This document shows, one piece after another, positions 12,410 to 63,173 of a DNA stretch of 64,000 bases. The DNA comes from Mobula hypostoma (taxonomy: Eukaryota). Both the position numbers and the translations under genes were made by a program. The stretch's first letter is position 1. Every line of letters begins with the position of its first letter. The notes below the pieces were generated by a model. The model worked only from the letters and a program-made list of their open reading frames with translations, searched no databases and was not told where the DNA came from. Location of the stretch: assembly GCF_963921235.1 (NCBI RefSeq), contig NC_086097.1, positions 142,044,001 to 142,108,000 of the forward strand, written 5' to 3'.

Positions 12410-13240
12410 TTGAACTTTGAACAAAGTACGTATCTATATGTAACTTTAAGATTCATCTCCTTACAGTCAGCCACAAAGAAATCCAATAAAACCCATTAAA
12501 ACAAGACCACCAAAAACCCAATGTGCAGAAAAAAAATCAAATTAAGCAAACAATAAAAGTAAGCAAACAACATTCAGAACTGATGTTCATGAAAATGAGT
12601 CCACAGCCATGAAGCCAGTCACGGCCGATCTAGGAGCTTGTTAGTTGAAGGCCACAGCCTCAGTTCAGTGCAGAGACAAGTAAATCTAGTGACCAGCAAA
12701 CTGAACATCAGTCCATCACTCTCCTCTGGCCTAGCACTGAAATCGTCCAAGCAGTGGGTTGTTCCTCACTGTCGGACCCAGGCCCTGCCGCTTAAAAATG
12801 TTCTTGGGCCTGAGACCCACCATCTTGATTCAGCTCGTATTCAATCTTCCCAGTTTGGCCTGGCACTTAAATTAGCCAAACATCAGCTTTTTCCTCACTC
12901 TCAGGCTTGGACCCACCTCCTTGATTCCGCTTTGCCTCGTTCTACTGCTTCAAATCGGCTCTAAGCCCACTCAAAAATGGCCATACATCAGTTCTTTCCT
13001 CACTCTCGGGCCTGGGCCCCACTGCCTTGATTCAGCACATATTCACCACGCTACAACCGTCGTGCACCTTTGAGAGTTCAACTCACAGTGCAAAAGTGGC
13101 AGGATCAAAAGCTCAACTCTGAAAGGGAAAATACAGGCGATTGATTGCAGTGATCATTTACCAGAAAAAGTGTGATTAATACAGTAGTTAGCAGCTTTGG
13201 TTGCTGTCAGCAAGTCATTGCTGTGTCTCACCATCACCAT
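12410..13240 (-). mobile_element. Unclassified non-coding interspersed repeat with internal ~105-bp subrepeats
   Basis: Its left end resembles short repeat ends at ~34810 and ~56020. Contains degenerate internal copies of ttcctcactctc...ttgattc. No recognisable protein. Confidence 0.45.
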
Positions 13241-13244
13241 TTTA

Positions 13245-15618
13245 CACCGATTGTCTGTTTATTGATGCCGGAAATTTTAACCACGCGAACCTTAAGTCAA
13301 TGCTCCCCAGATTCCATCAGAACGTGGACTTTGCAACAAGAGGGGAGAACGCATTGGACCTTGTTTACACAAACATTCCCGACGCGTACCGGGCAGAGCC
13401 CCGCCCCCCACCTCGGCTACTCAGACCACATCTCTGTTATGCTAATCCCAGCATACAGACCGCTCGTCAGACGCTCCAGACCAGTTCAGAAGCAGGTGAA
13501 AACCTGGCCAGCAGGGGTCATCTTGCTCTTCAAAACTGCTTTGAGCACACTGACAGACACATGTTCAGGGAGGCTGCAACCGATGGCAACTCTACCAACT
13601 TAGAGGAGTACACGGCATCAGTGACTAGCTTCGATGATGTCACTGTGGCCAAGACCATCACTACACACTCTAACCAGAAGCCATGGATGACTGCGGAGGT
13701 GTGTGCGCTGCTGAGGACCCGTGACTCCGCCTTCAGAGCAGGCGACAAGGCAGCCCTAACAACAGCGAAACTGTCCCAGGCCAAAAGAGAAGCAAAGCGT
13801 GCTCACGCCCAGCGAATCCACAGCCACTTCCAGGACAGCAGCGACACGCAGCGCATGTGGAAGGGCATTCAGGACATCAACTACAAGACAGCACCACCTG
13901 CCTGTGCTGGTGATGCCTCCCTCCCAGATGTGTTGAACAACTTTTATGCTCGTTTTGAGGCGGAAAATGACGTGGCGGTGAGGAAGACCACCCTTCTTCC
14001 AAATGACCAGGTGCTGTGTCTTACCATGGCCGATGCAAGGAGAACCCTGTGCAGGGTCAACCCACAGAAAGCTACTGGACCAGACAATATTCCTGGCAGA
14101 GTGTTTAGAGGATGTGCAGACCAGCTAGCAGAGATTCTCACTGACATCTTCAACATCTTCCTGAGCAGCACCGTTGTTCCTATGTGCTTCAAGGTGGCCA
14201 CCATCGTCCCCGTGCTGAAGAAGTCTTCAGTGTCCTGCCTCAATGACTACCGTCCCGTCGCACTCACATCCATCATCATGAAGTGTTTCGAGAGGCTCGT
14301 CACTGGGCACATCAAGACCCTGTTCCCCCCCCTCACTGGACCCTCTGCAGTTCGCATACCGTCCCAACTGATCAACAGATGACGCCATTGCCATCACCCT
14401 CCACCTGGCCCTAACCCACCTGGACAAAAAAAGACACATACGTTCGAATGCTGTTCATAGACTTCAGTTCAGCATTCAACACAATCATTCCTCAGAAACT
14501 GACTGGAAAGCTGAGCCTACTGGGCTTGAACACCTCCCTCTGCAACTGGATCCTAGACTTCCTGACTGGGAGACCTCAGTCAGTTTGGATCGGGAGCAGC
14601 ATCTCCAACACCATCACACTGAGCACGGGGACCCCTCAGAGCTGTGTGCTCAGTCCACTGCTGTTCACTCTGCTGACCCACGATTGTGCAGCAATACACA
14701 GCTCGAACCACATCATCAAGTTCGCCGATGACACGACTGTGGTGGGTCTCATCAGCAAGAACGATGAATCAGCATACAGAGAGGAGGTGCAGCGGCTAAC
14801 GGACTGGTGCAGAGCCAACAACCTGTCTCTGAATGTGAACAAAACAAAAGAGATGGTTGTTGACTTCAGGAGGACACGGAACGACCACTCTCCACTGTTG
14901 TTGAGATCGTTAAGAGCACCAAATTTCTTGGTGTTCACTGGCAGAGAATCTCACCTGGTCCCTCAACACCAGCTCCATGGCAAAGAAAGCCCAGCAGCGT
15001 CTCTACTTTCTGCGAAGGCTGAGAAAAGTCCATCTCCCAACCCCCATCCTCACCACATTCTACAGCGGTTGTATTGAGAGCATCCTGAGCAGCTGCATCA
15101 CTGCCTGGTTCGGAAACTGCACCATCTCGGATTGCAAGACCCTGCAGCGGATAGTGAGGTCAACTGAGAAGATCACTGGGGTCGCTCTGCCCGCCATTAC
15201 AGATATTTTACACCATACACTGCATCCGTAAAGCAAACAGCATTATGAAGGACCCCATGCACTCCTCATATAAACTCTTCTCCCTCCTGCCATCTGGCAA
15301 AAGGCACCGAAGCATTGGGGCTCTCACGACCAGACTCCTCAATACCCAGAGCTTGGACTGACTCCAACCTACTGCCCTCTACTGTGCCTATTGTCTTGTT
15401 TATTATTTATTATAATGCCTGCACTATTTTGTGCACTTTATGCAGTCCTGGGTAGGTCTGTAGTCTAGTGTAGTTTTTGTGTTGTTTTACATAGTTCAGT
15501 GTAGTTTTTGTATTGTTCATGTAGCACCGTGGTCCTGAAAAACTCTGTCTCGTTTTTACTGTGTACTGTACCAGCAGTTACGGTTGAAATGACAATAAAA
15601 AGTGACTTGACTTGACTT
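13245..15618 (+). mobile_element. 5'-truncated Rex1/Babar-clade LINE, frameshifted APE endonuclease-RT ORF
   Basis: ORFs 13201, 14448 and 14977 carry [36 protein letters not shown] and KFADD. The 3' end has AATAAA plus a (GACTT)n tail. Confidence 0.9.
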
Positions 15619-30034: not shown

Positions 30035-30145
30035 ACCCAAAATGTCGACTGTATTCTTTTCCTAGATGCTGCCTGGCCTGCTGAGTTCCTCCAGCACTTT
30101 GTATGTGTTGCTCGGATTTCCAGCATCTGCAGATTTTCTCTTGAC
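30035..30145 (+). mobile_element. Short Penelope-like terminal fragment
   Basis: Matches the terminal ~110 bp of the element at 46500-46613; starts in the 3' half of the hammerhead motif. Confidence 0.75.
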
Positions 30146-30162
30146 AGTGTAAGTCTTTCCCT

Positions 30163-30348
30163 AAACACAAAATACTCTGCAGATGCTGGGGTCAAAGCAA
30201 CACTCACAACACGCTGGAGGAACTCAGCAGGTTGGGCAGCATCCGTGGAAACGATAGTCAATGTTTTGGAAGGGTTTTGGCCTGAAACGTTGACTGATCA
30301 TTTCCATGGATGCTGCCTGACCTGCTGAGTTCCTCCAGCGTGTTGTGA
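30163..30348. mobile_element. Fold-back Penelope-derived mini-element with 14-bp TSD
   Basis: Inverted arms around a hammerhead remnant. TSD gtaagtctt(t/a)ccct at 30149-30162 and 30349-30362. Confidence 0.82.
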
Positions 30349-32009
30349 GTAAGTCTTACCCTGATTTGTAATCCCAAAGTGCAATACTTCAGACTTTTCT
30401 GCTTTAAATTCAATCTGCCATTTTCGACCCAATTTCCCAGCTGGTGCAGATTACTTTGCAAGCTTTGATAGGCTTTCTTGATGCCCAATAGCTGTCATCC
30501 AGAAATTTGCTGATCTAGTTCACCATATTATCATCTAAATCATTAGCATAAATGATAAACAATAACGGACCCAGCACCAATCCCTGGGGCACACCACTAG
30601 TCACTGGCCTCCAATCAGAGAGAAAACCATCTCCTAACAACTCTCTGACTTCTCCCATTAAGCCAATGTTGAATCTAATTGATTACTATGATCCTGAATG
30701 CCAAATGTCTTAAGCTTCTGGAGCAGGCTCTCATGTGGGACTCTGCGAAAGCCCACGTCAACAATGCCAATCCAGAACCTTTCCTTCATCAACCTTCTTT
30801 ATAACCTCTTCTAGTTGATAACAGTTTTGGTAATCTGTAAGACTGATTAGACATGACCTGCCATGCACAAAGTCTCGTTGACTCTCTATTCAGGAGTATG
30901 TTCAACTTTTATATAGTATAGTTATAATATATTTCAGAAAATTCAGTGTTTGCCTAAATAATCTACTTTCTGATCTGACCCTTGAATAGAATTAAAAGTA
31001 ATTACACTAGCTACACAGATTTACCAAGTGCAATTTGAAATATGTGACTAGATAGAAAGGAACACAGGATATTCACTTTCACAATCAGGATATCTAATTA
31101 ATTGAGTGTATTTCAACAATGACCGGTCATGACGTGGGCATATTCGTTCTTATTGTGCAGTATTCCACTGCAATGCACTGCTTCAGTCTGTTCAATTGAC
31201 TGGCACTTCAAAAGATATTCACAATAAGGAAAAAAGTTGGCAGATTCCCTTTCCTCATGGATATTGATAGGTTGCAAATATCTAGCATGCAATTCAATTT
31301 CAAATTGCTTAAACTTGACCCCTAGGGTGCCAGAACTTCCACCAAAGCCACTACACCATTATAATCCAGGCAACAGAACCATTTCATTAAACTAATTTCT
31401 CTGTTTGCCCGGATATTTCCTCTTCCCTCTCCTGAAGACTGACAAACAAAGGAGTTGGCAACCATAATGCAAGATACTTTTCAATATCACACTATTCACA
31501 GAATGAACTACAATAAGCATCATTTTTTGCTATGAGGGATCTTAGTTAATGCCAGTCCAATCCACTTGTACACAAGCTCTCAGCAAGAGTTGATTGGGCA
31601 GTGAGTAGCACTGGAAATGTAGTGAAAAGTTGTACTCAATATTGATAACCTAAGATCAGTCTTCACAACACAAATGAGGCATCAAATCAGAGACACTGCT
31701 CGGTATTTGTTTTTAAACATGGTGCTGTCCTGTTGGAAATACAACATGAACCACATGCAAAGCAGTGCACCAAGAGTAAATTATTTGTAGTGAACACATT
31801 AAAAGACAGCTGTAAGATTTAAGAGAGTATATTCCCAGCAGCCATACATTACTTTCTTCTGCACCACCACGTGTAGCAGCCGAAACAGGAAATTTTCTGT
31901 CACTAGTATTAAAGTAGAATCCAAATCATTGTCCTACTGGGATATTTTGACCTGTCTATTGTGGACCACCAGTGGCCTCTATGAATGTAAATCTATTTCT
32001 CCTTAATTT

Positions 32010-33223: not shown

Positions 33224-34043
33224 CTAAGACACATTGGACAAATCAATTCTAGATCATTTCCTGTTTTAGTAAATAATTTCAAGGCACTGCTGTGCCTTTC
33301 CTGCTATACAGTACATCTCACAAAGAGTTCAAGATTAATATCATCAAGAGAAGAAAAAAAATCAATTAAGTAGTAGATCAACCGCATTCACGATGTATTG
33401 CACAATGACAAACACATTTGGGGAAAAACATCTAACATAAAGGAAAGAGCTAAATGGAAATAACTGTACATTACTGCACCATTAGTTTCTTCAATATGTA
33501 ATCCCTTGTTTGCCATCACCCTCCAGGTTTAGGTTTACAGATGCTCTCCCTAGCTCACATTTAAGATTCCCTTTCAATGGTCTAGGTTTAGGAGTGCCTT
33601 TTCTGGCTGTGTTGCGATGTGGACTCCTCCTTTTCTTGACAAGATTCAGAGCAAAAAGATATGAAAACTGCTGAAAGGCAATATGAACATAGTATTGTTT
33701 TTGTGAAGAAATTCTCATCTCTTTTAACTATGATGTTTTTAGAGTAAAAGATCTGGTTAAGGTCATTTGCATACTTTTGTTAGCCCAAAGTAAGTGTCAG
33801 GATTGAAGTTAGATACCCAATTTCTAATTCTGTTCAGCAAAAGGGTAACCCTATATATTGTGAAATAGCAAAAAAAATCTCACTGAGAAAAGAGCCCAAA
33901 CAGAGTCAAGATAGGGACAAAGACGCTGTGAATAGAAAAACAAAGGAGTGTCAAACAACTATAAGCATTCCCTTGTCCTTTTGGAGAACACAGCAATGAT
34001 GGAGATGCCTCAATTTTGGTGAAGAAAAATACATGTTCATTTA

Positions 34044-34745
34044 TCTGGCCAGGCAGCATCTATAGGAAGTAGTACAGTCAACTTTTCGGGTTGAGACCCT
34101 TCGTCAGGACTAACGGAAAAAAGAGATAGTAAGGGATTTGAAAGTGGGAGGGGGAGGGGGAGACCCGAAATGATAGGAGAAGACAGGAGGGAGAGGGATG
34201 AAGCCAAGAGCTGGGAAGTTGATTGGCAAAAGGGATACAAGGCTGGAGAAGGGGGAGTATCATGGGACGGAAGGCCTTGGAAGAAAGAAAGGGGGAGGGG
34301 AGCACCAGAAGAAGATGAAGAACAGGCAAAGAGTTATTGTGAGAGGGAAGGAGGGAAAAAAAATAATAATAATAAATAGTAAATTAGGGATGGGGTAAGA
34401 AGGGGAGGAGGGGGGTTAACGGAAGTTAGAGAAATCAATGTTCATGCCATCAGGTTGGAGGCTACCCAGATGGAATATAAGGTGTTGTTCCTCCAACCTA
34501 AGTGGGCTTCATCTCAACAGCAGAGGAGGCCATGGATTGACATATCGGAATGCGAATGGGACGTGGAATTAACATGTGTGGCCACACATTTTAATTCCAC
34601 GTCTGTCCACCAGAGGAAGTAGGATCTCCCATTGGCCACACGTCAACTGTACTTCTTCCTATAGATGCTGCCTGGCCTGCTGCGTTCCACCAGCATTTTG
34701 TGTGTGTTGCTTGAATTTCCAGCATCTGCAGATTTTCTCATGTTT
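34044..34745. mobile_element. Rearranged fold-back Penelope-like insertion with 11-bp TSD
   Basis: Minus-strand pLTR and GIY-YIG C-terminus (LRLEEQHLIF), scrambled centre, then a plus-strand terminus. TSD atgttcattta at 34033-34043 and 34746-34756. Confidence 0.85.
34076..34111 (-). ncRNA. Degenerate minimal type I hammerhead ribozyme motif
   Basis: AGUC-CUGACGA-AGGGUCUCAACCC-GAAA-AGUU-GACU. Core boxes are kept, but the stem III palindrome and the cleavage triplet are altered. Confidence 0.6.
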
Positions 34746-34799
34746 ATGTTCATTTACCTACTTTGATAGATCAAGAATGTCATGGGATCCTTGATTAGG

Positions 34800-35433: not shown

Positions 35434-36889
35434 CAATGCCTATAGAAAGTATTCACCCCCTTGGAAGTTTTCATGTTTTATTGTTTCCCAATATTGAATC
35501 ACAGTGGATTTAATTTTTTTTTGTTGATACTGATGAACAGAAAAGGACTCTTCCTTGTCAAAGTGAAAACAGATCTCTACAAAGTGATCTAAAATCAATT
35601 ACAAGTATAAAACACAAAATAATTGACTGCTTAAGTTTTCACACCCTTTAACACGACACACCAAATCATCACTGGGTGCAGCCAACTAGTATTAGAAGTC
35701 ACGTGATTAGTTAAATGAAGATCACCTCCACATCTCCAGGTGGAGAGTCAAGGTGTTTCAACTAATTGTAGTAAAAATACACCTGTATCTGGAAAGTCCA
35801 ACTGCTGATGAGTCAGTATCCTGACAAAAACTATACCATGAAGACAAAAGAACACTCTAAGCAACTCGGCAAAAAGGTTATTGAAATACACAAGTCAGGA
35901 GATGGATACTAAAAAATTTCCAAGTCACTGAATATCCCTTGGAGTACAGTTAAGTCAATAATCAAGAAATGGAAAGAATATGGCACAGCTTTAAAACTGT
36001 TTAGAGCAGGCAGTCCTCAAAAACTGAATAACCGTGCAAAAAGGGGACTAGTGAGAGAGGTCACCAAGAAACCTATGACAACTCTGGAGGAGTTACAAGC
36101 TTCAGTGGCTGAGATAGGAGAGACTGTGCATACAATAATGGTTGCCTGGATGCTTCACCAGTCACTGCTTAATGGGAGAGTGGCAGAGAGAAAGGTACTG
36201 TTGAAAAAAAAACTCACATGAAATCTCGGCTAGAGTTTGCCAGAAGGTACGTGGGAGACCCTGAGGTCACCTGGAAGAAGATCCTGTGGTCTGATGAAAC
36301 CAAAATTGAGCTTTCTGTTCATCAGGTTAAACGTTATGTTTGGCGTATGCCAAACACAGCACATCATCAAAAGTATACCATCCCTACCATGAAGCATGGT
36401 AGTGGCTGCATCATAAACCCAAAGCTACACGGGAATGGCTTAAAAACAACAAAGTAATGTCCTTGAATGCCCAAATCAGTGTCCAGACCTCAATCCAATT
36501 GAGAATTTGTGGCTGGACTTGATAAGGGTTGTTCACTCACGATCCCCATGCAATCTGACAAAGCCCGAGCAGTTTTGTAAAGAATGGGGAAAAACTGCAA
36601 AGCTGATAGAAACCTACCCACACAGACTCAAGGCTGTAATTGCCATCAAAGTTGCATCTAGTAAATACTGACTTGACATGATTGGATAAATATTCACCCA
36701 ATTATTTTGTATTTAATAATTGTAATAAATTGAGACCAATTTGTAGAAATTTGTTTTCACTTTGACACAAAAGAGTCTTTTCTGTTCATCAGTGTCAAAA
36801 AAAAACAATTAAATCCACCGTGATTCAATATTGTAAAACATTAAAACATGAAAACTTCCAAGGGCAGTGAATATTTTTTATAGGCACTG
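35434..36889 (+). mobile_element. Tc1 DNA transposon (Passport-like), defective
   Basis: TA duplications at 35432-33 and 36890-91; long diverged TIRs. Transposase remnant 35838-36671 reads MKTKEHSKQL...WSDETKIEL...PDLNPIENLW, with stops and an internal deletion near 36413. Confidence 0.92.
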
Positions 36890-43871: not shown

Positions 43872-43994
43872 TTTGCCATTGGTTTGTTTTTGGCTATCTT
43901 TCGTAGCTGTGGTTTTAGCTACTCGAGTCACAGTGCTGGGTTCAACTTTTCGGTTCAATCTTACTGGATCGGGTTTTTTCTCTACTGATTTAGC
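43872..43994 (-). CDS. map4: MAP4 pseudo-repeat exon (AKSVEKKPDPVRLNRKVEPSTVTRVAKTTATKDSQKQTNGK), 123 bp, phase 0 to 0
   Basis: Acceptor atttag|GCTAAA, donor AAA|gtgagt. Resembles mammalian AKVEKK...AQKQPAGK at the same position. Confidence 0.92.
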
Positions 43995-45471
43995 CTAAAT
44001 AAACAACCAAAAAGGGATGGAAAAATAAACAAGTACACAGGCAAATGTAATGAGGGAGAAACTCAAGAGAGAATGTTCTGAAATTTAAAAGAAACAAATG
44101 ATTAACCCAGTTTAGTCATTTAAAATACATACTAACAAAACACAATAGATCAATGTTTTAAAAATAAAGCACACTTCTTACTTCCAATATATTTGAATTC
44201 ATTCTGAGTTATTTATGTACTTATATTCCAAAATATCTTCAGATTGGAAACAACTAAGTTACTTTCTGCTTGGTTTCCACATCATACCCCACCCAACCCC
44301 CACTCTCCTAAAAACCACGATATTATAGGTCAGTGAGCCTGAAGTCAGTCGTGGCTAAATTATTAAAAGTGTTTTCTAAGGGACAGAATATACTGTATAT
44401 GTATTCAGATAGAGAAGGCCTGATTTGGGAAAGTAGGTCATGTCTAACCAATCTTATAGTTTTGAGGAGGTAACCAAGAAGGCTGATGAAACAATACTCA
44501 TGTTCAAAAGTCATTAATGTTGTTTACATGGATTTTAGCAAAGCCCTTGACAAGAACTGTATGGGAGGCTGCTCTAGAAGGTTAAGTTGCTTGGCATTTG
44601 AGATGAGGTAGTCCACTAGATTCAACATTGGCCTAGTGGGAGAGGCCAGTGAGTAGTGGCAAATGGCTGTTTCTCCGACTTGAAGCTTGTGACTAATCGT
44701 TTGCATCAGGAATCTGTGCTGAGTCTGTGGTTGTTTACCTATATTAATGATTTAGATGATAATGTGATGAACTGAATCAGCAAATTTGCAAATGACATCA
44801 AGACAGGGGACACAGTGGACAGTGAGGAAAGCTATTAAGTCTTGCAGTGTGACCATGACCAGCTGGGAAAAAGGGCTGAAAGGTGGCAGAAGGAATTTAA
44901 TGCAGAGAAGTGTGAGATGTTGCACATTGGGAGGACAAACCAGAGTAAAGTATTACACACAAAGTGGTGGGGGTCTGAGGTGTGCCATGGAATAAAGCAA
45001 CCAGGGAAAAATGATCCATCATTCCTTGAAAGTAGACAGATAAGATCATAAAGAGATCTTCCAAAACATTTGCCTTCATAAATCAAGGCACTGAGTACAG
45101 GAATTGGGATATTGTGGTAAGAGTTGCATAAGATGTTGCTGACGCCAAATTTAGGGTACTGGATGCAGTTTTGTCACGCATAAGAAAGATGCCAGTAAGA
45201 TTGAGAGATCAGATAAAAATTTACAAGGATGTTGCCAGGTCTTGAGGACATGAATTACAGGGAAAAGCTGAATAGGCGAGGATGTTATTCCCGAGAGTAC
45301 AGGAGAATCGCCGGGGGGGGGGGGGGGGGGGGGGGGCGGATGTGATAGACATATAAAAAATTACAAGGGATATAGATAGGGCAAAAGCAAACAGGCTTTT
45401 TCCACTTAGCAACACACATCAAAGTTGCTGGTGAACGCAGCAGGCCAAGCAGCATCTGTAGGAAGAGGTGC

Positions 45472-45507
45472 AGTCGACGTTTCAGGCCGAGACCCTTCGT
45501 CAGGACT
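45472..45507 (-). ncRNA. Intact minimal type I hammerhead ribozyme motif
   Basis: AGUC-CUGACGA-AGG(GUCUCGG)CCU-GAAA-C-GUC/GACU: stem I AGUC:GACU, both core boxes, stem II AGG:CCU, palindromic ACGU stem III, GUC cleavage triplet. Confidence 0.8.
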
Positions 45508-45825
45508 AACTGAAGGAAGAGTGAGTAAGGGATTTGAAAGTTGGAGGGGGAGGGGGAGATCCAAAATGATAGGAGAAGACAGGAAGGGGAGGGATAGAGC
45601 CAAGAGCTGGACAGGTGATAGGCAAAAGGGGATACGAGAGGATCATGGGACAGGAGGTCTGGGAAGAAAGATGGGGGGGGGGGACCCAGAGGATGGGCAA
45701 GGGGTATATTCAGAGGCACAGAGGGAGAAAAAGGAGAGTGAGAGAAAGAACGTGTGCATAAAAATAAGTAACAGATGGGGTACGAGGGGGAGGTGGGGCC
45801 TAGCGGAAGTTAGAGAAGTCGATGT

Positions 45826-46092
45826 TCATGCCATCAGGTTGGAGGCTACCAGACGGAATATAAGGTGTTGTTCCTCCAACCTGAGTGTGGCTTCATCTTT
45901 ACAGTAGAGGAGGCCGTGGATAGACATGTCAGAATGGGAATGGGATGTGGAATTAAAATGTGTGGCCACTGGGAGATCCTGCTTTCTCTGGAGGACAGAG
46001 CGTAGATGTTCAGCAAAGTGGTCTCCCAGTCTGCGTCGGGTCTCGCCAATATATAAAAGGCCACATCGGGAGCACCGGACGCAGTATATCAC
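45826..46092 (-). pseudogene. GIY-YIG endonuclease domain of a Penelope-like retroelement (fragment)
   Basis: (V)IY-x-C..C-x-YIGET motif, conserved R...EH, HF and E. No RT present. Confidence 0.9.
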
Positions 46093-46482
46093 CCCAGTTG
46101 ACTCACGGTGAAGTGTTGACTCACCTGGAAGGACTGTTTGACCTCCAACCTGATGGCATGAACATCGACTTCTCTAACTTCCGCTAGGCCCCACCTCCCC
46201 CTCGTATCCCATCTGTTACTTATTTTTATGCACACATTCTTTTTCTCTCACTCTCCTTTTTCTCCCTCTGTCCTTCTGAATATACCTCTTGCCCATCCTC
46301 TGGGTTCCCCCCCCCCCGTCTTTCTTCCCGGACCTCCTGTCCCATGATCCTCTCGTATCCCCTTTTGCCTATCACCTGTCCAGCTCTTGGCTCCATCCCT
46401 CCCCCTCCAGTCTTCTCCTATCATTTTGGATCTCCCCCTCCCCCTCCAACTTTCAAATCCCTTACTCACTCTTCCTTCAGTT

Positions 46483-46518
46483 AGTCCTGACAAAGGGTCT
46501 CGGCCTGAAACGTCGACT
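46483..46518 (+). ncRNA. Hammerhead ribozyme motif with core mutation (CUGACAA)
   Basis: Same as 45472-45507 except for G8 to A. Confidence 0.65.
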
Positions 46519-47150
46519 GCACCTCTTCCTACAGATGCTGCTTGGCCTGCTGCGTTCACCAGCAACTTTGATGTGTGTTGCTTGAATTTCCAGCATCTGC
46601 AGAATTCCTGTTGTTTTTCCACTTAGCTTGGGTGAGATTAGAACTAGAGGTCATGGGTTAATGGTGATAAGGGGGAAAGTTTAAGGGGAACATGAGGGGA
46701 ATCTTCTTCACTCATAGGGTGGTGACAGCATGGAATTAGCTGCCAATGGTGCATGTGGGTTCAATTTCAACATTTACAGTTACAGGAATATGGACGGGAG
46801 GGGCATGGAGATCTACAGTAGAGGTGCACATCAGTGGACAGGTGAGCCATTGGGTCTGATGCTGTTCTGCAGTGTTCTATGTCTCCAGGAGTGGGCCAGG
46901 AATTGGAGGATTGTTTAGACAAAGGACAGACAGTTTAACATCAGTAATGTGCAATTTATTAGAATGAATTCTGAGCAACAGTATAAATCTTTATTTATGA
47001 CAGCAAAGTCGAAAACAATAAGCGTGGATTGATTTGTAGTAGCATGGTCTGAAAAGGTCCCATAAAGCAGTCTAGTCAATGAAGCAAAATTACTAGTGAG
47101 ATCAGCACTAAAATTGGTTCCATATAGGAATCAAAGAGATTTGTTAACAG

Positions 47151-47355
47151 ATATTCAGCAAGCCAGGCAGTATGTATGGAAAAGAGTAAACAGTCGATGT
47201 TTTGGGCTGAGACCCATCATCAGGGTCTGATGAAGGGTCTCGGCCTGAAATGATAACTGTTTATTCTTTTCCGTAGATGCTGCCTGGCCTGCTGAGTTCC
47301 TCCAGCAATCTGCGTGTGTTGCTTTGTATCTCCAGCATTTGCAGATTTTCTTGTG
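47151..47355. mobile_element. Fold-back Penelope-derived mini-element with two back-to-back hammerhead remnants and 11-bp TSD
   Basis: Centre catcatcag-ggt-ctgatgaag with inverted arms. TSD tttgttaacag at 47140-47150 and 47356-47366. Confidence 0.85.
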
Positions 47356-47429
47356 TTTGTTAACAGGCACTTCAGTGATAGTTAGGATTACAGTAGGGGT
47401 GAGTAGAATCTTGCACAATCCATATGGAG

Positions 47430-47820
47430 AAGGGAAAGTGAAAATAATGACAGAGGCTAGTAGGTGATAGGTGGAGGCAACAAAGAATTACAGATGATGG
47501 AATCTGATAGAAACAGAAGATGGTGCATGGATTCCATTATCTACACCCCTTTCTTGCCCTAGCCTGTCATTATTTCCACTCTTCCCTCCTCCATCACCAA
47601 TTACTTCCTCTCATCTGGACCTATCTACTGCTTGCCAGCTTTTTCCCTCCCCTTTCTGTCACCTCTTTATGCTGGCCATTTTCCCTCTGCTCTTTCATTC
47701 TGGATTAACAGCCTTGACTCGAAGAATCAGCTGGCCATTTCCCTCTACAGATGCTGCTTGACTGACTTCTGCCAGCAATTTTTTTTTGTTCCAGATTTCA
47801 GCATCTGTAGCCCCTGTCTC
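47430..47820. mobile_element. Old, degenerate Penelope-like pLTR fragments
   Basis: Purine-rich then pyrimidine-rich arms, with terminus cagatgctgc...cagcatctg. Confidence 0.5.
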
Positions 47821-48369
47821 TAAATTTCAAAGAATATTGCCAGGACTAGAAGACTAGCTATGAGGAAAGATTGGGCAGCCACGATCTTTTTTTGGAACAG
47901 GTGGGTGAGAAGAAATGTAATTAAGGTATATACAGATAAAACAGGAAAGAGCTATTTCCTATAATAGAGAGATCAAAAACTTTGGAAAGTAGATTTAATA
48001 AGTGAAAAAAAATCACCGGAGGTTGATAAAGACTGGAACTTGCTGTCTGAAAGGATAGTAAAGACTTCATCACATTTAAAACTTACAGGGCTATACATGA
48101 AAAATTGGAGTTTGCACTGAATGGTGGTATTAAACTGTGTAGCTCTTTTCATACAGACACAGACAAGAATGGCCTTTTTTGAATCAAATATTTTCAATAA
48201 TTCTATCACTGTTTTTCCAGTAATTTGCTACCTAGGCCACCTTGCCATGAAAACTTTACGACTTCACTTATTTTTATAACTGTTTCAAATTTATCACATT
48301 GCTATCAAATTGAATAAAAAATTCTCCCCTATTATAATGCAAGGGGATTCTTTGCTATAAGATTACTAA

Positions 48370-48832
48370 CTAAAAGTGATGTTGTGGGGATGGATTCTCT
48401 CACGGTGGTGTCTGAAAAGAGGATGCTGTCTAAGTTGCATGCCATCTTGGTCAATGTCTCCCATCCACTATATAATGGAGTGGTTGGGCACAGGAGTACA
48501 TTCAGCCAGAGACTCATTCCTCCGAGATGCAGCACAGAGTGTCATAGGAAGTCATTCCTGCCTGTGGCCATCAAACTTTACAACTCCTCCCTTGGAGGGT
48601 CAGACACCCTGAGCCGATAGGCTGGTCCTGGACTTATTTCATAATTTACTGGCATAATTTACATATTACTATTTAACTATTTATTACTATTTTCTATTAC
48701 TATTCTATTACTACTTATTATTTCTATGACTATTACTATTTACTAATTGTAATATTACTATTACTATTTATTATTTATGGTGCAACTGTAGCGAAAACCA
48801 TTTTCCCCCGGGATCAATAAACTATGACTATG
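48370..48832 (+). mobile_element. Rex1/Babar-like LINE 3' fragment
   Basis: ORF 48384 (SHPLY...RKSFLPVAIKLYN), AT-rich simple repeats, AATAAA plus a (CTATGA)n tail. Confidence 0.8.
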
Positions 48833-49811
48833 AAACTTCCAATGCAGCAGTCCTAATATTGGAATTAACCCTATATAGTTTTCTCCTGTACTCCTAACAT
48901 TAAACTTAGTATTATAGACTTTAATTTTGATTAGATTTTAGGGGCCACATTACACAATTTATAACATAATTTAAAAACTTGCAGAGGCGAGTTAACAAAA
49001 ATGGTAAACATGCTTCACTGGGTTACAAGCACAGTTGGGACTATGCCATAAAATTCTATATTATTCTTACAATAGTCAAATTAGAGTTAAAAGCCAGGAA
49101 ACAAAATGAAGGTTATTCAGTAACTGAATGGGGAGTGAATCTTGGGCAGTAAACTTCATAGAGTTACGATTTCAGGTCAAACCTCACAATTATATTTACT
49201 CTTTCAAATGTTATCTGATAATTTTCTTTCGGAAGAATACAACCTTCCAGAAATAATACACATCTTCAAACTAAGTGTTTGATATTTCTTGGAATACTTT
49301 TATAATTTTCAATATTGCCCCATAATTAATGGATGAGCTGAACAAGGAGTGAAACAGAAGACAAATGAATATTCAAAAGATACAAGGTGCATAGAATATT
49401 AAATCAGAAAGATAAATAAGTTCAACGAGAGTAATAGGAATAGTCCAAACATTAATGAGGAAATTATTAAGAGTAATGAATATTTAGAACAAGTAGAAAG
49501 TTACATACAGTATATTAGCATTTTTTAAAAATAGAACTGCACTTTCAAAAATTTCTTGGATTACGTGACTGTTCTGCATTGTTTGAATATTCTGAGTAAA
49601 CAGAAGGCAATACTTCAATTCAAGTCATTTTTTTAAAATAAGGAGTATTAGTATGTTACATGGTTGAACTTTGATCAACAAAGGAAGCTTCATTCTCCCC
49701 TACTATTTTTCTCATTTCAATTTTCCAATGCTTACTTCTCACTTAATTTATCAAAGTGTGCTTGAATAAAATGACTGGCATTCATTTATCTTCAAATAGG
49801 AAACCACTTAC

Positions 49812-52501: not shown

Positions 52502-54095
52502 CAAACCCCATTTCCAGAAAAGTTGGGATATTTTCCAAAATGCAATAAAAACAAAAATCTGTGATATGTTAATTCACGTGATCCTTTATTTAACTGGCAA
52601 AAGTACAAAGAAAAGATTTTCAATAGTTTTACTGACCAACTTAATTGTATTTTGTAAACATACACAAATTTAGAATTTGATGGCTGCAACACACTCAGCA
52701 AAAGTTGGGACAGAGGCATGTTTACCATTGTGTTACATCATCTTTTCTTTTAATAACACTTCTTAATCATTTTGGAACTGAGGATACTAATTGTAGTAGA
52801 TTTGCAATTGGAAATTTTGACCATTCTTGCTTGACATAAGACTTCAGCTGCTCAACGGTCCGTGGTCTCCATTGTCTGATTCTCCTCTTCATGATGCGCC
52901 ATACATTTTCAATAGGAGATAGATCTGGACTGGCAGCAGGCCAGTCAAGCACACGCACTCTGTGTCTACAAAGCCACGCTGTTGTAGTCCGTGCAGAATG
53001 TGGTCTGGCATTGTCCTGCTGAAATAAGCATGGACGTCCCGGGAAGAGACGTCATCTTGATGGCAACATATGTCTCTCTAAAATCCTAATATGCCTCAGA
53101 GTCAATGGTACCTTCACATACATGCAACTCACCCATGCCGTGGGCACTGATGCACCCCCATACCATCACAGATGCTGGCTTTTGCACCTTTCGCTGATAA
53201 CAATCTGGATGGCCGTTTTCATCTTTGGAACTCGACACCCGTTTTTTCCGAAAACTAGCTGAAATGTGGACTCATCTGACCACAGCACACAGTTCCACAG
53301 TCTTTCGGTCCATCTGAGATGAGCTTAGGCCCACAGAACTCGCCGGCATTTCTGCATAGAGTTGATGTATAGCTTCCTCCTTGCGTAATACAGTTTCAAG
53401 TTGCATTTCTGGATGCAGCAACGGACTGTGTTGAGTGACAATGGTTTTCCAAAGTACTCCCGAGCCCAGGTGGCTATAATTGTCACAGTAGCATGACGGT
53501 TTCTTAGGCAGTGCCGCCTGAGAGCTCGAAGATCACACGCATTCAACAGTGGTTTCCAACCTTGCCCTTTACGCACTGAGATGTCTCTGAATTCCCTGAA
53601 TCTTTTCACAATATTATGTACTGTAGATGTTGAAAGACCTAAATTCTCTGCAATCTTGCATTGAGAAATGTTCCCTTTGAACTGACCAACAATTCTCTGA
53701 CGAATTTTGGCACAAAGGGGTGAGCCACGACCCATCCTTGCTTGCAAAGACTGAGCCTTTGATGGACGCTACTTTTATACCAGTCATGATACCTCACCTG
53801 CTACCAATTAGCCTGCTTAATGTGGAGTCTTCCAAACCGGTGTTACTTGAATATTCTGTGCACTTTTCAATCTTATTTTAACTCTGTCCCAACTTTTGTT
53901 GAGTGTGTTGCAGCCATCAAATTCTAAATTTGTGTATGTTTACAAAATACAATTAAGTTGGTCAGTAAAACTATTGAAAATCTTTTCTTTGTACTTTTGT
54001 CAGTTAAATAAAGGTTCATGTGAATTAACATATCACAGACTTTTGTTTTTATTGCATTTTGGAAAATATCCCAACTTTTCTGGAAATGGGGTTTG
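52502..54095 (-). mobile_element. Full-length Tc1 (DD34E) DNA transposon with 214-bp TIRs, defective transposase
   Basis: TA duplications at 52500-01 and 54096-97; TIRs 52502-52715 and 53882-54095. Transposase 53735 to 52722 reads MGRGSPLC...FQQDNARPH...SPDLSPIENVW, with 34 residues between D and E and an in-frame stop at 53325. Confidence 0.95.
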
Positions 54096-60702: not shown

Positions 60703-63173
60703 TTCAATCTACATATAGATTGGGTGAACCAAGGGTGTTGAGGAAGACGATTTCTTGGAATGTATGTGGGATAGTTTTCTGAACCAACGTGCCGAGGAAC
60801 CAACTAGAGAGCAGGCCATTCTAGACTGGGTATTGAGCAATGAGGAAGGGTTAGTTATCAATCTTGTCGTGCCAGGCCCCTTGGGTAAGAGTGACCATAA
60901 TCTGGTGGAATTCTTCATTAAGATGGAGAGTGATATAGTTAATTCAGTAACAAAGGTTCTGAACTTATAAGAAGGGTAACTTTGATGGTATGAGACGTGA
61001 ATTAGCTAAGATAGACTGGCAAATGATACTTAAAGGGTTGACGGTGGATATGCAATGGCAAGCATTTAAAGATCGCATGGATGAACTACAACAATTGTTC
61101 ATCCCAGTTTGGCAAAAGAATAAACCAGGGAAGGTAGTGCACCCGTGGCTGACAAGGGAAATTAGGGATAGTATCAATCCCAAAGAAGAAACATACAAAT
61201 TAGCCAGAAAAAGCGGCACACCTGAGGACTGGGAGAAATTCAGAGTCCAGCAGAGGAGGACAAAGGGCTAGGAAAGGGAAAAAAGATTATGAGAGAAAGC
61301 TGGCAGGGAACATAAAAACTGACTATGAAAGCTTTTATAGATATGTGAAAAGAAAAAGATAGGTTAAGACAAATGCAGGTCCCTTACAGTCAGAAACAGG
61401 TGAATTGATCATGGAGAACAAGGACATGGCAGACCAATTGAATAACTACTTTGGTTCTGTCTTCACTAAGGAGGACATAAATAATCTCCCGCAAATAGTA
61501 GGGGACCGAGGGTCTAGTGAGATGGAGGATCTGAGGGAAATACATGTTAGTAGGGAAGTAGTGTTAGGTAAACTGAAGGGATTAAAGGCAGATAAATCCC
61601 CAGGGCCAGATGGTCCGCATCCCAGAGTACTTAAGGAAGTAGCTCAAGAAATAGTGGATATTTAGTGATAATTTTTCAAAACTCTTTAGATTCTGGACTA
61701 GTTCCTGAGGATTGGAGGGTGGCTAATATAACCCCGCTTTTTAAAAAAGGAGGGAGAGAGAAACCAGGGAATTATAGACCGGTAAGCCTGACATCTGTGG
61801 TGGGGAAAATGCTAGAGTTAATTACCAAAGATGTGATAACAGCACATTTGGAAAGCGGTGAAATCATCGGACAAAGTCAGCATGGATTTGTGAAAGAAAA
61901 ATCATGTCTGACGAATCTCATAGAATTTTTTGAGGATGTAACTAGTAATGTGGATAGGGGAGAACCAGTGGATGTGGTATATTTGGATTTTCAAAAGGCT
62001 TTTGACAAGGTCCCACACAGGAGATTAGTGTGCAAACTCAAAGCACACGGTATTGGGGGTATGGCACTGATGTGGATAGAGAATTGGTTGGCAGACAGGA
62101 AGCAAAGAGTGGGAATAAACGGGACCTTTTCAGAATGGCAGGCAGTGACCAGTGGGGTACCGCAAGGCTCAGTGCTGGGACCCCAGTTGTTTACAATATA
62201 TATTAATGACTTAGACGAGGGAATTAAATACAGCATCTCTAAGTTTGCGGATGACACAAAGCTGGGTGGCAGTGTTAGCTGTGAGGAGGATGCTAAGAGG
62301 ATGCAGGGTGACTTGGATTGGTTAGGTGAGTGGGCAAATTCATGGCAGATGCAATTTAATGTGGATAAATGTGAGGTTATCCACTTTGGTGGCAAGAACA
62401 GGAAAACAGATTATTATCTGAATGGTGGCCGATTAGGAAAAGGGGAGGTGCAACGAGACCTGGGTGTCATTGTACACCAGTCATTGAAAGTGGGCATGCA
62501 GGTACAGCAGGCGGTGAAAAAGGCGAATGGTATGCTGGCATTCATTGCAAGAGGATTCGAGTACAGGAGCAGGGAGGTACTACTGCAGTTGTACAAGGCC
62601 TTGGTGAGACCACACCTGGAGTATTGTGTGCAGTTTTGGTCCCCTAATCTGAGGAAAGACATTCTTGCCATAGAGGGAGTACAAAGAAGGTTCACCAGAT
62701 TGGTTCCTGGGATGGCAGGACTTTCATATGATGAAAGACTGGATCGACTAGGCTTATACTCTCTGGAATTTAGAAGATTGAGGGGGAATCTTATTGAAAC
62801 ATATAAAATTCTGAGGGGATTGGACAGGCTAGATGCAGGAAGATTGTTCCCGATGTTGGGGAAGTCCAGAATGAGGAGTCACAGTTTGAGGATAAAGGGG
62901 AAGCCTTTCAGGACCGAGATGAGGAAAAACTTCTTCACACAGAGAGTGGTGAATCTGTGGAATTCTCTGCCACAGGAAACAGTTGAGGCCAGTTCATTGG
63001 CTATATTTAAGAGGGAGTTAGATATGGCCCTTGTGGCTCAAGGGATCAGGGGGTATGGAGAGAAGGCAGGTACAGGGTTTTGAGTTGGATGATCAGCCGT
63101 GATCATAGTGAATTGCGGTGCAGGCTCGAAGGGCCGAATGGCCTACTCCTGCACTATTTTCTATGTTCCTATG
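60703..63173 (+). mobile_element. Young 5'-truncated CR1 LINE
   Basis: Begins inside the EN domain (FNLHIDW, LGKSDHN) with few lesions; 3' tail ttttctatgttcctatg. Confidence 0.96.
61665..63083 (+). pseudogene. Uninterrupted 472-aa CR1 reverse transcriptase and C-terminal segment
   Basis: NYRPVSLTS, YLDFQKAFDKV, GVPQGSVLGP, KFADDTK. The upstream part of ORF2 is broken. Confidence 0.93.

What the first reader, a model, noticed from the sequence alone, without database searches (positions are those of the whole stretch)
45397..46627. Young Penelope-like fold-back insertion with an intact hammerhead ribozyme on the map4 sense strand
Seen: ~440-bp inverted arms (about a dozen differences by eye) flank a GIY-YIG remnant, with a perfect 13-14 bp TSD inside a CR1. 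The left arm has a complete minimal hammerhead (45472-45507) on the minus strand, the strand transcribed as map4 pre-mRNA. Known: Penelope pLTRs carry minimal type I hammerheads with a palindromic stem III that are thought to cleave as dimers. Inference: this intron holds a potentially self-cleaving motif together with its own antisense copy, so co-transcriptional folding could decide between cleavage and a long silencing hairpin.
Basis: partly seen in the sequence, partly recalled or inferred. Interest (0 to 1): 0.72.

Follow-up and report, generated by a model that had tools for sequence, protein, structure and literature searches.

The report
Ordinary Penelope fold-back, masked hammerhead
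This intronic hairpin in a ray's MAP4 gene is one of tens of thousands of copies of a Penelope-type jumping gene, and its tiny self-cutting RNA motif is predicted to be zipped up by its own earlier-transcribed complementary arm, so it likely never cuts the host RNA and is ordinary.

Summary
In detail: 441-column inverted arms (427 matches), a GIY-YIG remnant, a 14-bp TSD inside a CR1, and an intact minimal hammerhead (45507-45472, minus strand) sense to MAP4. It lies in a 5.8-kb intron, 1,481 nt before the next exon. It is ordinary here. The exact 36-nt motif occurs 32,886 times in the genome, and 30 of 60 sampled loci are head-to-head fold-backs. Inverted pLTRs, a one-sided tail and dimer-dependent minimal hammerheads are all published for Penelope-like elements. 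The proposed folding switch is not supported. The antisense arm is transcribed first and pairs every hammerhead base as it emerges (duplex -74 kcal/mol against -6 to -10 for hammerhead folds). No intact same-strand partner lies in the intron, and published Penelope minimal hammerheads do not cleave as monomers. The only notable part concerns insertion: 29 of 30 fold-backs carry exactly one tail, paired arms share subfamily alleles, and here the tailed arm is the shorter. That fits priming from both cut target ends better than snap-back. The scan noted all of this before on other DNA of this and other genomes. No cleavage or RNA-end data could be obtained.

The parts
45397..45410 (.). Left target-site duplication (14 bp; last 3 letters shared with the element end)
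   Evidence: D17
45410..46140 (-). 5'-truncated Penelope-like copy 1 (about 730 nt): end of the GIY-YIG domain, 3' UTR, pLTR; ends short of the tail; sense to MAP4
45472..45507 (-). Minimal type I hammerhead, core intact, loopless palindromic ACGU stem III, stem II closed by A-U or G.U rather than G-C; predicted cut between 45476 and 45475
45846..46140 (-). GIY-YIG endonuclease remnant; forms the unpaired middle of the hairpin
46142..46613 (+). 5'-truncated copy 2 (472 nt), head to head with copy 1; its complement is transcribed first in MAP4 pre-mRNA
46483..46518 (+). Second hammerhead copy with G8A at 46492 (a CpG transition), antisense to MAP4
46583..46613 (+). 31-nt Penelope 'tail', present on this end only
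46614..46627 (.). Right target-site duplication (first 3 letters shared with the element's continuation)
   Evidence: D17
44312..45396 (+). Old, broken CR1 ORF2, left part (host of the insertion)
46628..46775 (+). Old CR1, right part, continuing the same ORF
43995..49811 (-). MAP4-like intron (5,817 nt) that holds the insertion
43872..43994 (-). Next MAP4-like exon (123 nt), 1,481 nt downstream of the predicted cut site

Best explanation
This is a head-to-head, doubly 5'-truncated insertion of a very abundant, likely Neptune-type Penelope-like retrotransposon into an old CR1 in a MAP4 intron, and its hammerhead is likely a silent passenger that is predicted to be zipped into a 440-bp hairpin as it is transcribed. 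Shown: arms, tail, TSD, motif, orientation, copy number. Inferred for insertion: the element's endonuclease made a staggered cut of up to 14 bp, both 3' ends primed reverse transcription on element RNA (one at the tail start site, one about 30 nt inside), and the two truncated cDNAs were joined at 46141. Inferred for MAP4: RNA polymerase makes the antisense arm first, the duplex forms along the arm, and the hammerhead is captured on emergence. It has no dimer partner, so the intron is not cut; any consequence would be that of an intronic double-stranded RNA.
For: 32,886 exact copies of the motif, one per about 106 kb. 30 of 60 loci taken in list order are fold-backs, 29 of those 30 have exactly one tail and 25 of 30 a TSD of 10-16 bp. 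Relatives at 96-97% identity encode RT, a C-x4-C-x2-C linker and GIY-YIG in one ORF. Growing-transcript folds always pair the hammerhead with the antisense arm; duplex -74.2 kcal/mol against -4.6 or -6.0 for the monomer and -8.9 or -9.5 for a trans dimer. The only same-strand relative in the intron (core at 47223) has lost G12 and stem I; the next one, near 34.1 kb, is in the following intron and has a broken palindrome. Literature: a minimal PLE hammerhead showed no cleavage as a monomer and low cleavage as a dimer (PMC4209133); the anole PLE hammerhead needed the element's protein and no RNA-seq reads ended at its cut site (PMC11167929); slow intronic ribozymes had no effect on splicing (Fong 2009 as summarised in PMC10919898).
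Against: All folding results are equilibrium predictions, not kinetics in cells; editing or proteins could open the duplex. The core is fully intact. The neutral C7T variant (2,317 copies) outnumbers the core-breaking G8A variant at the same CpG (1,416), a weak hint that the ribozyme matters to the element itself. No RNA ends could be examined, and no genome-wide test of orientation within genes was possible.
Confidence: 0.86

Rival explanations
1. One reading: co-transcriptional folding chooses between hammerhead cleavage and the hairpin, and so tunes MAP4 output.
For: The core is intact and sense to MAP4. An intronic ribozyme tuned to splicing exists in mouse Cpeb3 (PMC10919898, passages).
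Against: The antisense arm is upstream and wins at every transcript length tested. The cleavage-compatible monomer share is 1e-4 to 8e-4 for the bare 36-mer and 2e-5 or less in 131 nt of local context. No partner is present. At the mammalian rate quoted in PMC10919898 (3.5-4.1 knt/min) the next exon appears about 22-25 s after the motif, against a 2-3 min half-life for the Cpeb3 ribozyme.
Confidence: 0.04
2. The hairpin, not the ribozyme, affects the host: the 440-bp duplex is likely edited by ADAR or cut to small RNAs and could shift inclusion of the 123-nt exon 1.4 kb downstream.
For: The hairpin is predicted at -1022 kcal/mol. Inverted Penelope copies gave siRNAs matching their arms in transgenic flies (PMC3681739, passages).
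Against: Two older fold-backs of the same superfamily lie in MAP4 introns (34047-34745 and 47151-47355), and thousands are predicted genome-wide, so nothing singles this one out. The 123-nt exon is present in the closest annotated MAP4-like proteins.
Confidence: 0.12
3. The fold-back arose by snap-back or self-priming of a single cDNA rather than by priming from both target ends.
For: Self-priming on an antisense template was proposed for head-to-head copies with junction palindromes (PMC3846280, passage). The two arms share 8 minority alleles, as a copied arm would.
Against: Here the tailed copy is the shorter by about 290 nt at its 5' side, so neither copy contains the other: the tailed one lacks the GIY-YIG part and the longer one lacks the tail. 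In one search's table the tailed arm is shorter by over 40 nt in 8 of 30 fold-backs and longer by over 40 nt in 4 of 30.
Confidence: 0.2
4. A short transcript started inside the left pLTR would lack the antisense arm and carry a free hammerhead that could pair with other element RNAs.
Against: A local hairpin over the same bases could equally stall the reverse transcriptase. Only 1 of 30 partner arms starts at the cut site. Such an RNA would not be MAP4 pre-mRNA.
Confidence: 0.1
5. The inverted repeat is an assembly artefact.
For: No listed contig bridges a junction by 31 letters on both sides.
Against: The arms differ at 14 columns, the TSD is exact and the CR1 continues across it. Run X1 has error-free contigs over both junctions, with 20 letters on the element side.
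Confidence: 0.02

Closest known systems
Minimal hammerheads (min-HHR) in pLTRs of metazoan Penelope-like elements (Cervera and de la Pena 2014, PMC4209133; abstract to start of methods read)
   Same: Type I, 4-bp stem I, loopless palindromic stem III, mostly in truncated copies; pairs on opposite strands 100-700 bp apart were already reported.
   Different: Stem II closes with G.U or A-U instead of the conserved G10.1-C11.1 (42,330 U-form against 7,576 C-form matches). Copy number is higher than the about 4,000 and 9,000 they give for coelacanth and Xenopus, counted by another method.
Inverted, 5'-truncated PLE insertions with a one-sided 30-40 bp tail and TSD (Craig et al. 2021, PMC8557442; Arkhipova et al. 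2013, PMC3846280; passages read)
   Same: Head-to-head truncated copy, tail at one end only, TSD around the whole unit.
   Different: TSDs here are mostly 13-16 bp against the 8-10 bp in the rotifer examples; the one-tail rule is counted here (29 of 30).
Poseidon element of Anolis carolinensis in vitro (Frangieh et al. 2024, PMC11167929; main text read)
   Same: Two reverse-transcription start sites that bound the tail; both target strands cut and extended; hammerhead next to the tail.
   Different: That element is Poseidon clade with the ORF starting inside the hammerhead. This family has the Neptune-type Cys linker and its first ATG lies about 40 nt after the tail.
Intronic Cpeb3 HDV-like ribozyme (PMC10919898, passages read)
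   Same: A self-cleaving motif in an intron on the pre-mRNA strand.
   Different: That one is conserved, single-copy and active as a monomer with a 2-3 min half-life; this one is a recent repeat, needs a dimer and is predicted to be masked.

Membership tests
Endonuclease-positive Penelope-like element | Single ORF with RT and C-terminal GIY-YIG | tested here: met
   Relative L048 (96-97% identical over the 730 nt shared) has an open frame of 906 codons; Pfam RVT_1 E 2.6e-5 and GIY-YIG E 7.6e-4, both under their cut-offs; 2,100 homologues at E<=0.001 among 7,989 scored. The window copy keeps only the GIY-YIG end.
Endonuclease-positive Penelope-like element | pLTR from tandem arrangement, holding a hammerhead | tested here: met
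   L068 is a partial tandem with two hammerheads 3,514 nt apart flanking the ORF.
Endonuclease-positive Penelope-like element | Inverted 5'-truncated copy, one-sided tail, TSD | tested here: met
   Window. Family: 30 of 60 fold-backs, 29 of 30 with one tail, 25 of 30 with TSD of 10 bp or more.
Neptune clade | C-x2-5-C-x-x-C linker between RT and endonuclease | tested here: met
   CKRNKCYTC precedes the GIY-YIG domain in L048 and L068; the window copy is truncated just after it. Feature as given in PMC8557442, where Nematis also has a linker motif.
Neptune clade | RT phylogeny | not tested
   No named reference sequences were held; no tree was built.
Minimal type I hammerhead | Core CUGANGA, GAAA, UH and stems I and II | tested here: met
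   Sequence; stems I and II form in the bare 36-mer (register B).
Minimal type I hammerhead | Palindromic 15.2-16.2, no stable stem III | tested here: met
   ACGU with no loop.
Minimal type I hammerhead | Conserved G10.1-C11.1 pair | tested here: not met
   Closing pair is G.U (with the extra A) or A-U. The U form is the family's majority. A typical rather than an obligatory feature in PMC4209133.
Minimal type I hammerhead | Self-cleavage as a dimer | not testable with these tools
   Needs a bench assay.
Host-regulatory intronic ribozyme (Cpeb3-like) | Able to fold in its pre-mRNA context | tested here: not met
   Predicted only: stems I and II have probability 0.00 in the full cassette.
Host-regulatory intronic ribozyme (Cpeb3-like) | Conserved at the orthologous site | tested here: inconclusive
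   One 45-nt contig of organism B starts exactly at the right TSD, which fits an empty site or another CR1 copy.

The most novel reading that the evidence does not exclude
Head-to-head insertion by priming from both cut target ends, at two fixed start sites on one element RNA, is a main route of transposition for this family. About half of its tens of thousands of hammerheads would then be born with their own antisense copy: self-masking ribozymes that make long double-stranded RNA whichever strand is transcribed, which could explain why host introns tolerate them and could feed silencing of the family.
Probability: 0.45. Interest if true: 0.45.

Novelty: new member of a known kind. Interest (0 to 1): 0.17.

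Why it matters
For MAP4 it most likely does not matter. The value is as one clear example bearing on how Penelope-like elements insert: neither of its two copies contains the other, which argues for two separately primed cDNAs and matches the two start sites seen in vitro. If fold-backs do mask their ribozymes, single sense-strand copies should be depleted from introns while fold-backs are not, a testable genome-wide prediction.

Tried and rejected
Rfam scan of 44000-48000 at E<=10: 11 weak matches, none a hammerhead, all far below gathering score; no custom covariance model was built. Sequencing runs: no RNA holder listed on record; the runs laid were contigs, which cannot show RNA ends or strand. 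The empty-site test in organism B was inconclusive: one 45-nt contig begins at the right TSD, and the rest of the right flank had no cover at 97%. The two stretches laid each covered one junction, so the hairpin itself was not examined for editing. My first stem II probabilities used one register only; one search corrects this, since the G.U register does form in the bare 36-mer, but with the core paired to the palindrome. I first took the intron to run to 33.2 kb; one search showed an exon at 43994-43872. Cleavage-made 5' ends: only 1 of 30 partner arms starts at the cut site, so they are not the usual source of fold-backs. G8A as a subfamily mark: rejected, 2 of 51 aligned arms and a CpG site. 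An orientation test in genes was considered and not run, for lack of gene annotation. Paper searches: Penelope + twin priming gave 3 papers, none on PLE fold-backs by title or abstract start; Penelope/Mobula/genome with two of three terms gave no paper on this family among the 10 listed of 2,515. Lunse et al. on dimer cleavage is not held; I saw only its citation in a review (PMC6765202, passages).

Full report
What is there. The stretch 45411-46613 is an insertion bounded by an exact 14-bp duplication, TTTTTCCACTTAGC, at 45397-45410 and 46614-46627. Both flanks align, in order and on the plus strand, to the young CR1 ORF elsewhere in the window, so the target was an old CR1. The insertion is two truncated copies of one element joined head to head at 46141. 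Copy 1 runs 46140 to 45410 on the minus strand: the end of a GIY-YIG domain (Pfam E 8.7e-4, below cut-off), its stop, a 3' UTR and a hammerhead. Copy 2 runs 46142 to 46613 on the plus strand and repeats the last 440 nt plus a 31-nt extension. The arms match at 427 of 441 columns. The hammerhead of copy 1 (45507-45472) has an intact core and a loopless ACGU stem III; that of copy 2 has G8A. Rfam did not detect either.

Host gene. The exon at 50144-49812 is identical over the aligned 111 residues to a protein named microtubule-associated protein 4-like from a Mobula ray; the next hits are MAP4-like or uncharacterised proteins of other rays and sharks. Mapping 8 of those 120 listed proteins places exons on the minus strand, including one at 43994-43872. 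The insertion therefore lies in a 5,817-nt intron, the intact hammerhead is sense, and its predicted cut is 1,481 nt before the 3' splice site.

How common it is. A DNA search of the own genome gave 3,513 candidates, of which 40 were scored, at 96-97% identity apart from the window's own. The exact 36-nt motif occurs 32,886 times, control 0, one per about 106 kb. A 30-nt pattern with N7 free gives 42,330 and its C11.1 form 7,576. I fetched 60 stretches covering the first 67 of the 100 listed exact matches (first 5.4 Mb of contig C1). Thirty of 60 are head-to-head fold-backs; 29 of the 30 have a tail on exactly one arm and one has two; 25 of 30 have a TSD of 10-16 bp. Of the 30 singles, 15 have a tail and 15 a TSD of 10 bp or more. 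This sample is one chromosome end and over-represents loci with two intact motifs. Among all 100 listed matches, neighbours within 4 kb are head-to-head 9 times, tandem twice and tail-to-tail once. In a second set chosen by similarity (38 stretches) I picked 19 fold-backs by eye; all 19 had one tailed and one untailed arm and 17 a 13-17 bp duplication.

What family. Relatives carry a long ORF with RT, a CKRNKCYTC linker and GIY-YIG, and L068 is a partial tandem with hammerheads 3,514 nt apart. The Cys linker is the Neptune mark given in PMC8557442 and PMC3846280 (passages); no tree was built. The closest named proteins are from sharks and rays at 68-77% identity over part of their length. The window's arms differ from the family majority by 3.1% and 3.3%, whereas most sampled arms differ by 0-2%, so it is young but not among the youngest.

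What is known. Inverted truncated copies, a 30-40 bp tail at one end and TSDs are described for PLEs (PMC8557442, PMC3846280, passages). Minimal hammerheads in pLTRs, including pairs on opposite strands 100-700 bp apart, are described, with no cleavage as a monomer and low cleavage as a dimer for the motif tested (PMC4209133, abstract, results and discussion read). The anole Poseidon protein cuts and extends both target strands from two start sites that bound the tail; its hammerhead cleaved only with protein, was dispensable for insertion, and no RNA-seq reads ended at its site (PMC11167929, main text read, supplements not). Inverted Penelope copies gave siRNAs in flies (PMC3681739, passages). 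A 2026 preprint reports tandem hammerhead repeats under-represented in Xenopus introns, though 42-44% still lie there (10.64898/2026.07.22.740005, first part and passages; supplements closed).

Can it cut MAP4 pre-mRNA? On the MAP4 strand the complement of copy 2 is made first. Folding transcripts that end at successive points gave every emerged hammerhead base paired to that arm, from 13 of 13 to 36 of 36; at the first point tested the single emerged base was unpaired. The 36-nt duplex is -74.2 kcal/mol, the monomer fold -4.6 or -6.0 and a trans dimer -8.9 or -9.5; the whole cassette folds at -1022. Without the arm the motif is still unfavoured: in the bare 36-mer the core pairs with the palindrome and the cleavage-compatible share is at most 8e-4, falling to 2e-5 in 131 nt of context, where a competing hairpin takes the core. 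The only same-strand relative in the intron (core at 47223) lacks G12 and stem I. These are equilibrium predictions. Against my reading: the core is intact, and the neutral C7T variant (2,317) outnumbers G8A (1,416) at the same CpG, which may mean the ribozyme matters for the element's own RNA, or may reflect sequence context. No RNA-end data were available.

How the fold-back formed. In 17 long fold-backs including the window, paired arms are closer than unrelated arms (1.33% against 2.38%) and share more minority alleles (3.35 against 0.74 per pair); 0 of 2,000 permutations reached either value. Both arms thus come from one template lineage, or were later homogenised. In the window neither copy contains the other, which a single snap-back cDNA cannot give; the tailed arm is shorter by over 40 nt in 8 of 30 sampled fold-backs and longer in 4 (read). 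Priming from both target ends at the two start sites explains the one-tail rule, the shared alleles and the TSD. This is inference; self-priming on an antisense template (PMC3846280) remains a rival. Sixteen of 30 partner arms begin within 310-347 of the reference, at the hammerhead's 5' edge, and 1 of 30 at the cut site.

Earlier notes. The scan holds 1,692 notes fitting 'Penelope hammerhead' in this genome and 31 findings on sense-strand intronic hammerheads in at least 16 genomes; none lies near this place. They reach the same readings, including two-ended insertion. They are unchecked AI notes and not independent support; my reading was recorded before the first look-up.

Verdict. A real and well-preserved but ordinary member of a known kind. 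The hammerhead is likely silent in MAP4 pre-mRNA (confidence 0.86). Interest 0.17.

Noticed in passing
window 47140-47366: Older small fold-back of the same superfamily in the same MAP4 intron: 69-nt arms, 80% complementary, 3 nt apart, 11-bp TSD, both hammerheads damaged.
   Followed up: partly
window 34033-34759: Older fold-back in the next intron with a 14-bp TSD (13 of 14 match), a sense-strand hammerhead with broken palindrome, and a 22-nt palindrome at the inner junction.
   Followed up: partly
window 30040-30362: Nested Penelope-type ends: a small fold-back (30163-30348 between 14-bp direct repeats, 13 of 14 match) beside an older plus-strand end.
   Followed up: no
genome G000: The U11.1 form of the hammerhead outnumbers the canonical C11.1 form 42,330 to 7,576, so the most amplified version has a non-canonical stem II closing pair.
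   Followed up: partly
L069-L128: Fold-back arms pile up at the hammerhead's 5' edge (16 of 30 partner arms at 310-347), where a local hairpin is predicted.
   Followed up: partly
L048:4637-7354 (+): A copy with 906 open codons covering RT and GIY-YIG; L055 has identical arms, so the family was active very recently.
   Followed up: partly
window 43872-43994: 123-nt MAP4-like exon between the first two tubulin-binding repeats, present in the closest annotated proteins.
   Followed up: partly
window 61635-63083: Young CR1 ORF2 piece, 482 open codons on the plus strand.
   Followed up: no
window 52767-53768 and 35913-36457: Open frames that look like Tc1/mariner transposase pieces (label from my own knowledge, not from a call).
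   Followed up: no
window 13192-15231: Non-LTR reverse-transcriptase-like open frames on the plus strand, probably RTE/Rex type (label recalled, not tested).
   Followed up: no
window 45313-45338: Run of about 26 G in the left CR1 flank.
   Followed up: no
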